NCBI GenBank assembly: GCA_964457585.1 | Contig: CAYWFU010000004.1 | Span: 13,927-77,926 of the forward strand | Reading direction: 5' to 3' | Length of the DNA: 64,000 bases | Origin: an uncultured bacterium | GTDB taxonomy: Bacteria; JACRDZ01 | Part shown: positions 43,656 to 43,831 of the stretch, one piece after another | Numbering within the stretch: position 1 is the first letter of the stretch | Layout: each line of letters opens with the position of its first letter | Translations under genes and position numbers: made by a program | Notes under the pieces: generated by a model | The model's database searches: none | Seen by the model: the letters and a program-made list of their open reading frames with translations, nothing else | Told to the model about the DNA's origin: nothing

Positions 43656-43831
43656 ATCTGGAAGTGCCAAGAATACCCTGCAGTTTACTGCAGGGATGAA
43701 TTGGCACAAATATAAATAAAGTCTCTGAAAGGTAAATAATTATTATAATTAGTGCCTTTGGCACTCCCAGATAAATAATTCCTATCAGAGACAGAAGATA
43801 CCTCACAGCTTGCTGCGAGGTTCTTCATTAT
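43656..43831. repeat. Copy C of the nested-hairpin repeat element (longest form).
   Basis: Same conserved blocks as copies A/B at 9548-9836. Carries the ccctgcagtttactgcaggg insert, an extra module with hairpin agtgcctttggcact, and terminal hairpin cctcacagcttgctgcgagg before ttcttcatt. Confidence 0.8.

What the first reader, a model, noticed from the sequence alone, without database searches (positions are those of the whole stretch)
43656..43831. A third, longer copy of the nested-hairpin repeat marks the edge of a TA-rich accessory island
Copy C has the same 5' block (atctggaagtgccaa + ccctgcagtttactgcaggg insert + ttggcacaaatataaataa) and 3' block (ttcctatcagagacagaagatacc + hairpin cctcacagcttgctgcgagg + ttcttcatt). 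It also carries one more module with its own hairpin (agtgcctttggcact). This modular accretion of hairpin units, with compensatory stem changes in the terminal hairpin across the three copies, is characteristic of mobile intergenic repeats (REP/BIME-like) or a small RNA family. Copy C sits immediately after the M48 protease gene. It is followed by a HEPN remnant plus MNT, a duplicated protease-gene fragment and VapBC, so it may mark an integration hot spot.
Basis: seen in the sequence. Interest (0 to 1): 0.55.

Follow-up and report, generated by a model that had tools for sequence, protein, structure and literature searches.

The report
Small hairpin-ended mobile DNA repeat
The repeat is a real, previously undescribed family of ~95-125-base mobile DNA elements in Desantisbacteria-like bacteria; in this window one copy broke an antitoxin gene, one sits exactly at a stop codon, and one lies in frame inside the signal peptide of a secretion-pore gene, so it is not an island marker or a small-RNA gene.

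Summary
The "extra module" (43720-43772) is a second, inverted, 3'-truncated copy of the same element nested in the A-rich linker.

A 20-base core finds 21 more copies in one Candidatus Desantisbacteria MAG (JACQWU01). A covariance model raises that to 26. No matches in JGI metagenome or viral contigs, and none in Rfam.

Both hairpins show compensatory changes, but with no RNA-strand signal. Orientation relative to genes is mixed and the neighbouring genes are unrelated housekeeping genes.

Removing each window copy in silico restores a sensible sequence:
- A: the gspD signal peptide, as seen in orthologues.
- B: the gspC TAA stop and a short spacer.
- C: a continuous MazE-like reading frame.

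All insertions lie between A and T of TTTA|T, with no terminal inverted repeats and no target duplication. Two similar subterminal hairpins sit 19 and 7 bases from the ends.

Best reading: a non-autonomous element moved in trans by an HUH single-strand transposase (IS200/IS605-like). No transposase was found. REP/BIME membership, the sRNA reading and the "island edge" reading are not supported. It is a new member of a known kind.

The parts
43656..43828 (+). Copy C, composite. It is a long-form element carrying a nested inverted partial copy. The minimal inserted segment is 43657-43827 (171 nt, TCTGG...TTCA), between TTTA and TT.
   Evidence: 70.3 bits. Excising it restores a continuous MazE-like ORF.
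43664..43707 (+). Left hairpin of copy C. Outer stem is GTGCCAA / TTGGCAC. It encloses the inner 20-nt hairpin CCCTGCAG-TTTA-CTGCAGGG (43676-43695).
   Evidence: DNA fold; terminator-like scan; covariation in helices 1 and 2.
43720..43772 (-). Nested, inverted, 3'-truncated short-form copy: ATCTGGGAGTGCCAAAGGCAC...CCTTTCAGAGACT. It is inserted after TTTA in the linker of the outer copy.
   Evidence: inverted 5' block at 43758-43772; alignment to copy A, score 54, 0 of 2000 shuffles as high.
43779..43802 (+). Core TTCCTATCAGAGACAGAAGATACC, invariant in the three window copies. Its internal 20-mer is exact in 21 copies in JACQWU01. Its 3' half forms the 5' arm of the lower stem of the right hairpin.
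43794..43826 (+). Right hairpin of copy C. Lower stem is GAAGA/TCTTC. Upper stem is CCTCACAGC/GCTGCGAGG. It is followed by the terminal ...TTCA.
   Evidence: helix 3: four pairs with changes on both sides.
9548..9644 (+). Copy A, short form with no inner left hairpin. It is a 96-nt in-frame insertion in the signal-peptide coding region of gspD on the minus strand. It carries one extra A at 9548 relative to the other copies, which removes the TAA and keeps the frame.
   Evidence: orthologue signal peptides; empty sites; excision restores MNIKKFIIYIFLINCIMLKFNTDIYA|ADKT.
9717..9833 (+). Copy B, long form. The minimal insert is 9718-9832 (115 nt). It lies exactly between the last sense codon of gspC (CAA) and the native TAA. 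The element's terminal TCA supplies the present TGA stop.
43478..43656 (-). MazE/AbrB-like antitoxin remnant interrupted by copy C. Its first five codons lie on the other side of the element (43828-43843), where the expected start position reads ACG.
   Evidence: Pfam PF04014 E = 1.9e-4, 21.8 bits, below the 24.7 cutoff.

Best explanation
This is a lineage-specific family of small non-autonomous mobile DNA elements. The short form is about 95 nt and the long form about 115-125 nt.

Architecture:
- 5'-TCTGG at the left end.
- A left hairpin, in the long form with a second 20-22-nt hairpin nested in its loop.
- An A-rich linker.
- A conserved core, CCTATCAGAGACAGAAGATA.
- A right hairpin.
- TTCA-3' at the right end.

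Copies insert between the A and the T of TTTA|T. They make no target duplication and have no terminal inverted repeats.

The most likely mechanism is movement as single-stranded DNA by a trans-acting HUH (Y1, IS200/IS605-type) transposase. Such an enzyme recognises the two similar subterminal hairpins by shape. That would explain why the stems are kept by compensatory change without any RNA-strand bias.

Shown here:
- The copies are insertions: three empty sites are reconstructed, two of them backed by orthologues.
- The target is TTTA|T.
- There is no TIR or TSD.
- The hairpins covary.
- Subfamilies are shared between two genomes.

Inferred:
- The enzyme class.
- The single-strand route.
- That the gspD carrying copy A is still functional.

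My probabilities: about 0.85 that it is a mobile non-autonomous element, and about 0.4 that the mover is IS200/IS605-like.

Copy C itself is an ordinary member. It landed in codon 5/6 of a MazE-like antitoxin gene and later received a second, inverted copy.
For: 1. Family and copy number.
- 21 exact-core copies in the Desantisbacteria MAG JACQWU01.
- 26 copies there plus 3 in the window by covariance model.

2. Insertions shown by excision.
- A restores a 26-aa signal peptide colinear with orthologues P0122-P0124.
- B restores gspC-TAA plus a 33-nt spacer, against 27 and 46 nt in orthologous loci with an identical GAAAGGAAGGCAT ribosome-binding stretch.
- C restores ..TKTNIIKIGNSQGIRIPK...

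3. Target.
- TTT precedes ATCTGG in 21 of 25 copies (p about 1e-22).
- T follows TTCA in 25 of 25.
- The nested copy also follows TTTA, and that TTTA is host linker sequence, so TTTA is target and not element.

4. End geometry.
- The 20-22-nt hairpins have similar stems (CCCTGC..GCAGGG) and the same orientation.
- The left linker is 19 nt and the right linker 7 nt.

5. Covariation.
- 94.2% of cells are paired, against 42-47% when partners are slid.
- 18 of 30 pairs have changes on both sides; 0 of 500 shuffles reach this.
- G.T 17 against A.C 12 gives no RNA strand.

6. The element is 84-91% identical between the two genomes, although orthologous gspD and M48 genes are only 72-73% identical at the DNA level.

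7. Y1-type genes exist in the related MAG: a RAYT-like gene and an IS200 TnpA N-terminal remnant.
Against: - No transposase with these ends was found. There is none among the 41 window ORFs of at least 150 aa, and none by tblastn in the window. In the fetched loci, tblastn found only the two Y1 relics below.
- The RAYT-like gene in L006 is flanked by unrelated GTAG palindromes. The IS200 remnant in L009 has different hairpins.
- Short-form copies lack the inner left hairpin, so their left geometry differs (7-nt linker).
- An invariant T at +1 is not a known requirement of IS608-type targeting.
- Orientation relative to the GC-skew switch near 30 kb differs between A/B and C. That does not fit a strict lagging-strand rule, although n = 3 and copy A is constrained by reading frame.
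- 19 of 26 copies lie with their + strand on the G-rich strand (p = 0.03, not independent; Wilcoxon 0.11).
- The number of independent compensatory events is small. Hairpin variants are subfamilies shared between genomes. The alignment used for counting was fitted to the structure.
Confidence: 0.55

Rival explanations
1. It is a REP/BIME-type repeat mobilised by a RAYT (TnpA-REP).
For: - The copies are dispersed, mostly extragenic and hairpin-forming, with several subfamilies.
- A RAYT-like Y1 gene exists in the related MAG (L006:1852-2433, PF01797 E = 5e-11).
- RAYTs and IS200 TnpA share the hairpin-plus-guide logic (PMC6006769).
Against: - There is no GT[AG]G at the foot of either hairpin; the bases there are AATA and GATA.
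- The hairpins are in direct orientation with a fixed 34-nt linker, not inverted REP doublets.
- The element behaves as one unit with defined ends and a defined target.
- The RAYT-like gene is flanked by different palindromes that do start with GTAG.
Confidence: 0.12
2. It is a non-autonomous rolling-circle element (IS91/ISCR- or Helitron-like, Y2 HUH). Replication would start at the 5'-TC end and stop at the 3' subterminal hairpin.
For: - Insertion is precisely between A and T, without duplication.
- The 5' end is TC.
- A hairpin lies 7-8 nt before the 3' end.
- There are no TIRs. These match the Helitron description in PMC5876387.
- Several copies keep only the 3' block (L012, L017:6809, L005:1320, L007:4304).
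Against: - The 3' end is TTCA, not the CTRR tetranucleotide known for Helitrons (my own knowledge).
- The element has two similar hairpins, one near each end, which is the IS200/IS605 pattern rather than one terminator hairpin.
- Helitrons are eukaryotic.
- IS91-family elements target GTTC/CTTG-type tetranucleotides (my own knowledge).
- No Rep/helicase gene was seen in the sequence held.
Confidence: 0.12
3. It is a family of small-RNA genes or a cis-acting RNA, such as a terminator, attenuator or mRNA stabiliser, and sequence conservation reflects RNA function.
For: - A core that is exact in 24 copies across both genomes, plus covarying stems.
- Hairpins score as terminator-like on both strands: 3 and 2 hits against 0.3 expected.
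- In L002, L005 and L017 I read sigma-70-like hexamers upstream of the copy, which lies in sense before a gene start. This is my reading of the flanks printed; no promoter scan was run on those loci.
Against: - No promoter is conserved, as the flanks are unrelated.
- Orientation to genes is mixed: 8 sense and 5 antisense between co-directional genes, plus divergent and convergent cases.
- Downstream genes are unrelated in function.
- G.T and A.C mismatches are balanced.
- There is no Rfam family.
- Copies occur inside reading frames.
- Secondary use as a terminator or stabiliser after insertion is not excluded and is compatible with the main explanation.
Confidence: 0.07
4. It is a classical MITE derived from a DDE-transposase IS, with terminal inverted repeats and a target-site duplication.
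For: - Size, copy number and AT-rich target.
- A genuine TIR-type MITE (GGCTGTCCAAAAAG...CTTTTTGGRCARCC) co-occurs in the related MAG (L001, L016).
Against: - The ends TCTGGA... and ...GTTCTTCA are not inverted repeats of each other.
- Three reconstructed empty sites show no duplication.
Confidence: 0.03

Closest known systems
IS200/IS605-family ends and their transposase-less derivatives (palindrome-associated transposable elements, PATEs)
   Same: - No terminal inverted repeats and no target duplication.
- Insertion 3' of a short fixed sequence that stays next to the left end.
- Similar 20-25-nt subterminal hairpins on the same strand at both ends.
- Left linker longer than right: 19 against 7 nt here, 15-19 against 8-10 nt in the family (PMC3597680, PMC6006769).
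   Different: - No cognate tnpA or tnpB was found.
- The left hairpin is nested inside a second, outer hairpin, and a short form lacks the inner one.
- There is an invariant T on the 3' side of the insertion point.
- No clear lagging-strand orientation bias was seen.
Rickettsia palindromic elements (RPEs)
   Same: Both are small palindromic mobile repeats that can sit in frame inside protein-coding genes and add a peptide segment (PMC10969869). Copy A adds 32 codons in frame to gspD.
   Different: - Only 1 of 29 copies is in frame in a gene.
- The antisense open frame is intact in only about 6 of the 26 copies in the related MAG, so coding capacity is not a conserved property of the family.
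- The host lineage is unrelated and there is no sequence similarity.
REP/BIME (REPIN) repeats with RAYT
   Same: Both are dispersed, mostly extragenic, GC-rich hairpins in several subfamilies, and both are plausibly handled by a Y1 HUH enzyme.
   Different: - No GT[AG]G guide.
- Direct rather than inverted hairpin pairs.
- Fixed composite unit with defined ends.
- The RAYT-like gene found has other cognate repeats.
Modular pneumococcal and enterobacterial repeats (BOX, RUP, ERIC)
   Same: Both are lineage-specific, about 100-130 nt, modular (blocks present or absent between copies), strongly folded and located near gene ends.
   Different: - RUP and ERIC have inverted-repeat ends.
- BOX is built of boxA-B-C modules.
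- None shares sequence, or the TTTA|T no-duplication insertion, with this family (my own knowledge for those families).
Helitron terminal organisation
   Same: Insertion between A and T, 5'-TC end, a palindrome a few bases before the 3' end, and no TSD or TIR (PMC5876387).
   Different: The 3' end is TTCA rather than CTRR. The element also has a hairpin near the 5' end, its host is a bacterium, and no Rep/helicase is known here.

Membership tests
IS200/IS605-type (Y1 HUH) element or PATE | No terminal inverted repeats | tested here: met
   The ends are TCTGGAWG... and ...GGTTCTTCA, which are not inverted complements of each other.
IS200/IS605-type (Y1 HUH) element or PATE | No target-site duplication; precise insertion | tested here: met
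   Excising A, B and C restores coherent sequences with no duplicated bases beyond a one-base ambiguity. Orthologous empty sites support this.
IS200/IS605-type (Y1 HUH) element or PATE | Conserved 4-5-nt target flanking the left end only | tested here: met
   TTTA precedes TCTGG in 21 of 25 copies, and also at the nested copy, where it is host sequence. Caveat: T at +1 is also invariant.
IS200/IS605-type (Y1 HUH) element or PATE | Similar subterminal hairpins of about 20-25 nt at both ends on the same strand, with the left linker longer than the right | tested here: met
   Long form: CCCTGCC-TTTCTAA-GGCAGGG lies 19 nt from the left end, and CCCTGCGG-TCTCTG-CCGCAGGG lies 7 nt from the right end. 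The short form lacks the inner left hairpin.
IS200/IS605-type (Y1 HUH) element or PATE | A cognate tnpA (Y1) gene between, or acting on, the same ends | tested here: inconclusive
   None was found in the 64-kb window or in about 190 kb of related loci. The Y1 relics found have other hairpins. Whole genomes could not be scanned.
IS200/IS605-type (Y1 HUH) element or PATE | Orientation bias to the lagging-strand template | tested here: inconclusive
   19 of 26 copies lie on the G-rich strand (p = 0.03, non-independent). Window copies A/B and C lie on opposite sides of a skew switch but on the same strand.
REP/BIME with RAYT | GT[AG]G tetranucleotide 0-2 nt 5' of the hairpin foot | tested here: not met
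   The bases 5' of the feet are AATA and GATA. There is no GTAG or GTGG.
REP/BIME with RAYT | Basic unit is two REPs in inverted orientation | tested here: not met
   The two similar hairpins are in direct orientation, separated by a fixed linker.
REP/BIME with RAYT | RAYT gene flanked by the same repeats | tested here: not met
   L006:1852-2433 (PF01797) is flanked by GTAGGGCAATCC.../GCAAGGCTGAAGCCTTGC palindromes, not by this element. Only part of that genome was seen.
Classical MITE | Terminal inverted repeats plus target-site duplication | tested here: not met
Small-RNA gene family | Own conserved promoter, and strand-specific structure conservation (G-U tolerated on one strand only) | tested here: not met
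   The flanks are unrelated beyond TTTA. G.T 17 against A.C 12. There is no Rfam hit.
Small-RNA gene family | Discrete transcript | not testable with these tools
   No expression data are available.
RPE-like in-frame coding repeat | Most copies inserted in frame in ORFs and encoding a conserved peptide | tested here: not met
   One in-frame copy (A) out of 29. The antisense ORF is intact in only about 6 of the 26 copies in the related MAG, and indels are not multiples of three.
Integron attC / island-border attachment site | Arrayed with cassettes, or next to an integrase at island borders | tested here: not met
   No integrase in the window. Copies are scattered next to housekeeping genes. 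Copy C lies inside, not at the edge of, the toxin-antitoxin patch.

The most novel reading that the evidence does not exclude
The element may be a bacterial HUH-mobilised non-autonomous transposon of an undescribed type, combining IS200/IS605-like paired subterminal hairpins with Helitron-like A|T insertion. On this reading, its subfamilies are exchanged between, or selectively maintained in, genomes whose orthologous genes differ by about 27% at the DNA level. Its antisense frame (a basic stretch followed by a 19-residue hydrophobic stretch) would have been co-opted as the working signal-peptide core of the type II secretion secretin GspD, with a one-base junction change that restored the frame.
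Probability: 0.15. Interest if true: 0.6.

Novelty: new member of a known kind. Interest (0 to 1): 0.4.

Why it matters
- It gives a concrete, testable example of small selfish DNA in a candidate phylum known only from metagenomes. Unrecognised repeats of this kind distort gene calls there. The public gene call for this gspD is 753 aa and starts inside copy B.
- The three reconstructed empty sites define the ends and target precisely enough to search for the responsible transposase and to test it in vitro.
- The in-frame insertion in a secretin signal peptide and the 'stop-codon-neutral' insertions are neat illustrations of how such elements survive next to, and inside, essential genes. In the stop-codon cases the element's terminal TCA replaces a displaced TAA, as in copy B, L014 and L022:4147.
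- This does not change what is known about mobile DNA in general.

Tried and rejected
- **Rfam.** At gathering and at permissive thresholds, only chance-level hits.
- **JGI metagenome contigs.** Scanned with the core 20-mer and with a degenerate 5'-block pattern: nothing. Viral contigs: nothing.
- **Source of the window.** Exact-protein look-ups failed. The cluster look-up gives only 'NCBI, contig 89,521 bp'.
- **Synteny downstream of M48 in relatives.** Sought as an empty site for copy C, but there is none. The empty site was reconstructed from the interrupted MazE-like frame instead.
- **Coding hypothesis (a 41-aa hydrophobic peptide on the antisense strand).** Rejected as a family property. 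The frame is broken in most copies, and hairpin and linker indels are not multiples of three. A profile search of 5.8 billion proteins found nothing at E <= 0.01.
- **Transposase hunt.**
  - tblastn with IS608 TnpA, IS200 TnpA and E. coli RAYT sequences written from memory. These are seeds only; hits were re-checked with Pfam. This found only the L006 RAYT-like gene and the L009 remnant.
  - Motif screens found no TnpB-like protein.
- **Guide/cleavage-site complementarity.** Left flank TTTA against AATA, and right end TTCA against GATA. One suggestive T:A to C:G difference, but the register is arbitrary, so I do not count it as evidence.
- **Hybrid promoter.** TTGGCA-16-TATAAT at 9562-9535 lies inside the gspD frame and was not pursued.
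- **HEPN remnant.** No Pfam support.
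Full report
**1. The observation**

Aligning it with 9530-9670 and 9700-9850 shows three copies of one unit, all on the + strand (A1):
- A: 9548-9644, 97 nt.
- B: 9717-9833, 117 nt.
- C: 43656-43828, 173 nt.

The 24-base core TTCCTATCAGAGACAGAAGATACC occurs exactly three times, against 0.00 expected. The 5' block ATCTGGAAGTGCCAA occurs three times forward, and once inverted with one mismatch at 43758-43772.

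As single strands the copies fold far better than shuffled controls, with z from -5.9 to -8.0.

**2. What the 'extra module' is**

Read on the minus strand, 43772->43720 is ATCTGGGAGTGCCAAAGGCAC-TAATTATAATAATTATTTA-CCTTTCAGAGACT. This aligns from the first base of the element through ...CAGAGAC of the short-form copy A. The score is 54, against 17.3 +/- 3.2 in 2000 shuffles with none as high; the forward orientation scores 21.

Copy C is therefore a long-form copy with a second, inverted, 3'-truncated copy inserted in its A-rich linker. The nested copy follows TTTA, and copies A and B show that this TTTA belongs to the intact linker. That makes TTTA target sequence rather than part of the element.

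**3. The family**

One scan of 185,579 species-representative genomes with CTATCAGAGACAGAAGATAC gave 22 hits. Of these, 21 are in one MAG, Candidatus Desantisbacteria JACQWU01 (GCA_016209155.1, groundwater). The other is a chance hit in a Bacteroidales MAG with no other block.

A covariance model built from 23 sequences with a hand-set structure (R1) finds 29 real copies in the window plus the fetched loci. None is new in the window. Five are additional diverged or partial copies in JACQWU01.

Variant copies in JACQWU01:
- Some keep only the 3' block: L012, L017:6809 and L005:1320, and also L007:4304, a weaker match (24 bits) outside those 29.
- One has its left hairpin replaced by an unrelated TIR-type MITE (L016).
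- One has a different inner stem (L006, CGTAAGC/GCTTACG).
- One has a wholly different left hairpin (L022:4147).

JGI metagenome contigs and IMG/VR contain neither the core nor the 5' block. Rfam has nothing. Full-text searches found no description of repeats in this phylum.

The window's own genome is not retrievable by name. Its M48 and GspD proteins are 69-76% identical to those of JACQWU01 and of JACRIQ01, a MAG labelled Poribacteria. I therefore treat it as a Desantisbacteria-like organism.

**4. Structure and covariation**

The proposed structure has three helices: the outer left stem, the inner left hairpin, and a two-tier right hairpin. Counts on the model-based alignment A4:

| Measure | Observed | Control |
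|---|---|---|
| Cells forming standard pairs | 94.2% | 42-47% when 3' partners are slid 1-3 columns |
| Pairs with a change on both sides | 18 of 30 | 0 of 500 column shuffles reach any observed measure |

Caveats:
- The alignment was fitted to the structure.
- Partial copies add forced pairs in the left hairpin.
- The right-hairpin variants fall into a few subfamilies (CCCTGCGG/CCGCAGGG, CCTCGCAG/CTGCGAGG, CCCTGTGG/CCACAGGG), so independent events are few.

Mismatches give no strand. There are 17 G.T (tolerable in a + strand RNA) against 12 A.C (tolerable in a - strand RNA). Pairing is selected, or regenerated, but nothing says the paired molecule is RNA.

**5. Where copies sit**

Orientation to neighbouring ORFs is mixed:
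- 8 copies in sense between co-directional genes.
- 5 copies antisense.
- Several in divergent and in convergent spacers.

Neighbours are unrelated. By my reading of the translations they include L25/Pth-like, S20 and L28 proteins, glutamyl-tRNA synthetase, an ABC-F ATPase, cytochromes and a few toxin-antitoxin genes. Two copies directly follow tRNA-Glu and tmRNA. This argues against a regulon-specific cis element and against an association with accessory DNA.

**6. The copies are insertions, with reconstructable empty sites**

This was the most informative result.

*(a) gspD.* Orthologous secretins start with ordinary signal peptides:
- P0123: MKNFKVAVCIFILLLNCCLVIDINVYA|VEK
- P0122: MKNFKNIFWIFLLIAIFNVFSNIYA|IEK
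- P0124: MKKLNIFFLVYCFFIFNILNSHTIFA|GN

In the window the reading frame from the ATG at 9679 (minus strand) gives three parts:
- MNIKKFIIYIFL
- MKIPRGRALRYLLSLIGIIYCLYLCQFIGTSR
- LNCIMLKFNTDIYA|ADKTPQEEMIQLDFNNTDVK

The middle 32 residues are copy A read antisense. Deleting 9548-9643 (96 nt) gives MNIKKFIIYIFLINCIMLKFNTDIYA|ADKT, colinear with the orthologues.

Copy A is the only copy with TTTAATCTGG instead of TTTATCTGG. The extra A makes the insert a multiple of three and destroys the TAA that otherwise ends the antisense frame. I infer, but have not shown, that this reflects selection to keep gspD open. The remaining 654 codons are intact and 72-76% identical to orthologues.

*(b) gspC.* In JACQWU01 and JACRIQ01, gspC ends 27 and 46 nt before gspD, and the stretch GAAAGGAAGGCAT before the start is identical in all three genomes. 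Deleting 9718-9832 (115 nt) from the window gives ...LNYQINQ-TAA followed by a 33-nt spacer. Copy B therefore lies exactly between the last sense codon and the native TAA, and its terminal TCA now provides the TGA stop. L014 and L022:4147 (behind rpsT) show the same arrangement, which I inferred from the distances of -4 and from the flanks.

*(c) Copy C.* Deleting 43657-43827 (171 nt) joins ...AAGGGAATTTTC ACG AAA ACT AAT ATA to ATA AAA ATA GGT AAT TCA.... This gives ..TKTNIIKIGNSQGIRIPKVALKQ...SAE*, a MazE/AbrB-type antitoxin shape. Details:
- A Shine-Dalgarno-like AAGGGA lies six bases before the position where ACG now stands in place of a start codon.
- Pfam support is weak (PF04014, E = 1.9e-4, 21.8 bits against a 24.7 cutoff).
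- There is no toxin partner.

I therefore call it a pseudogene.

*Common features of the insertion sites.* In all four cases, including the nested copy, the insertion point is TTTA|T(T), with no duplicated bases. Across 25 full copies:
- TTT precedes ATCTGG in 21 (binomial p about 1e-22 against the local TTT frequency).
- T follows TTCA in all 25.
- Positions further out are not conserved.

The two ends are not inverted repeats of each other.

**7. Mechanism**

The following features are the published hallmarks of IS200/IS605-family ends and of single-strand HUH transposition (PMC3597680, PMC6006769, PMC5876387):
- No TIR and no TSD.
- A short target kept at the left end.
- Two similar 20-22-nt hairpins on the same strand.
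- The left hairpin 19 nt from its end and the right hairpin 7 nt from its end.

Hairpin recognition as DNA would also explain covariation without an RNA strand signal.

The element is 84-91% identical between the two genomes, whereas orthologous gspD and M48 genes are 72-73% identical at the DNA level. The subfamilies also cross genomes: window C is closest to L005 at 90.9%, and short-form A is closest to short-form L017. This fits continued constraint by a transposase or exchange between lineages. It does not fit neutral decay of dead copies.

What is missing is the enzyme:
- None of the 41 window ORFs of at least 150 aa is a transposase or integrase.
- The related MAG contains a RAYT-like Y1 gene, but with its own GTAG-type palindromes.
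- It also has an IS200 TnpA N-terminal remnant flanked by a different hairpin.

The class of enzyme is therefore present in the lineage, but no cognate was identified. A rolling-circle (Y2) mover is the main alternative. The A|T insertion, the 5'-TC end and the 3' subterminal hairpin are also Helitron traits (PMC5876387), and 3'-block-only copies exist. Orientation relative to GC skew is only weakly biased (19 of 26).

**8. The surroundings of copy C**

| Feature | Coordinates | Evidence |
|---|---|---|
| fab operon, rnc, a radical-SAM gene, MTHFR, M48 | upstream |; M48 domains |
| Interrupted MazE-like frame | 43478-43656 (-) | |
| Possible HEPN remnant (not verifiable) | 43985-44130 | |
| MNT | 44143-44469 | PF01909, E = 2.5e-14 |
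| 292-bp duplicate of codons ~51-147 of the S8 protease | 44697-44988 | |
| DUF5647 | 45263-45538 | |
| Weak DUF2281 | 46043-46246 | |
| PIN | 46236-46655 | |
| Intact S8 protease | 46744-50124 | |

GC content falls to 0.22-0.29 across 44.0-47.6 kb, against 0.30-0.37 around it. A small toxin-antitoxin patch is therefore real. Copy C lies within it, disrupting one of its genes, and nothing ties the family to such patches.

**9. Verdict**

This is a real, undescribed, lineage-restricted family of small non-autonomous mobile elements. It is best filed as working like IS200/IS605-type hairpin-ended elements, with membership unproven for lack of the transposase. The REP/BIME, sRNA and island-edge interpretations are not supported. 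Novelty: a new member of a known kind. Interest is moderate, mainly for the precisely defined target and ends, the in-frame insertion into a secretin signal peptide, and the stop-codon-neutral insertions.

Noticed in passing
window 44697-44988 and 46895-47182: A 292-bp direct duplication (94-96% identical) of codons ~51-147 of the S8 protease gene brackets DUF5647, a weak DUF2281 ORF, a PIN gene and the protease's own start. This looks like a single-crossover integration or a tandem duplication. The upstream copy is a dead fragment.
   Followed up: partly
window 44665-44692: The hairpin GTCATTCCCGCAATCTTTTAGCGGAAAT abuts the start of the upstream protease-fragment duplicate. It resembles the internal hairpin (TTCCCGCGAAGGCGGGAAT) of a TIR-type MITE seen in JACQWU01 (L001:760-880, L016). 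There is one match in the window against 0 expected.
   Followed up: partly
window about 29,730-30,340: Gene orientation switches from the minus to the plus strand, and 8-kb GC skew switches from about -0.09..-0.01 to +0.12..+0.24. This is either a divergent operon boundary or possibly a replication origin region. I did not look for DnaA boxes.
   Followed up: no
window 7572-9833 (-): The public gene call for this secretin (P0121, 753 aa) starts at the ATG formed by the end of copy B and reads through both repeat copies. The native start is the ATG at 9679, behind the conserved GAAAGGAAGGCAT.
   Followed up: yes
window 9562-9535 (-): There is a near-consensus promoter-like site, TTGGCA-16 nt-TATAAT (11 of 12). 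Its first hexamer comes from the left hairpin of copy A. It lies inside the gspD reading frame, so its meaning is unclear.
   Followed up: no
window 54484-55214 and 56787-57841: There are 2.6 tandem copies of a 276-nt unit (84% matches) inside the 1749-aa PKD-domain protein gene. Further ~300-nt diverged repeats occur in the following Ig-domain ORFs. These are ordinary domain repeats.
   Followed up: partly
L006:1852-2433 (JACQWU01): A RAYT-like Y1 transposase gene (PF01797, E = 5e-11) is flanked on both sides by its own GTAG-type palindromes (GTAGGGCAATCCTTCAGG..., GCAAGGCTGAAGCCTTGC). This is a separate REP system in the related genome.
   Followed up: partly
L009:2220-2590 (JACQWU01); also L001:1025-1050, L007:2892-2918: A remnant of an IS200-like tnpA (N-terminal NHTVWDCKYHIVW only) lies between two copies of a hairpin ACCTGAATCT-N7-AGATTCAGGT. 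In L001 and L009 the studied element sits 13-17 nt after this hairpin.
   Followed up: partly
L006:3907-4112 and L022:4868-5375 (JACQWU01): Two copies of the element start 4-6 nt after the 3' CCA end of tRNA-Glu(CTC) and of tmRNA. This is probably just AT-rich TTTA targets behind RNA genes.
   Followed up: partly
L002, L005, L011, L017, L022 (JACQWU01): Five of the 21 loci fetched around one copy contain a second copy within about 0.6-6 kb, and window copies A and B are 72 nt apart. This may be local hopping or target-rich spacers. I ran no formal test.
   Followed up: no
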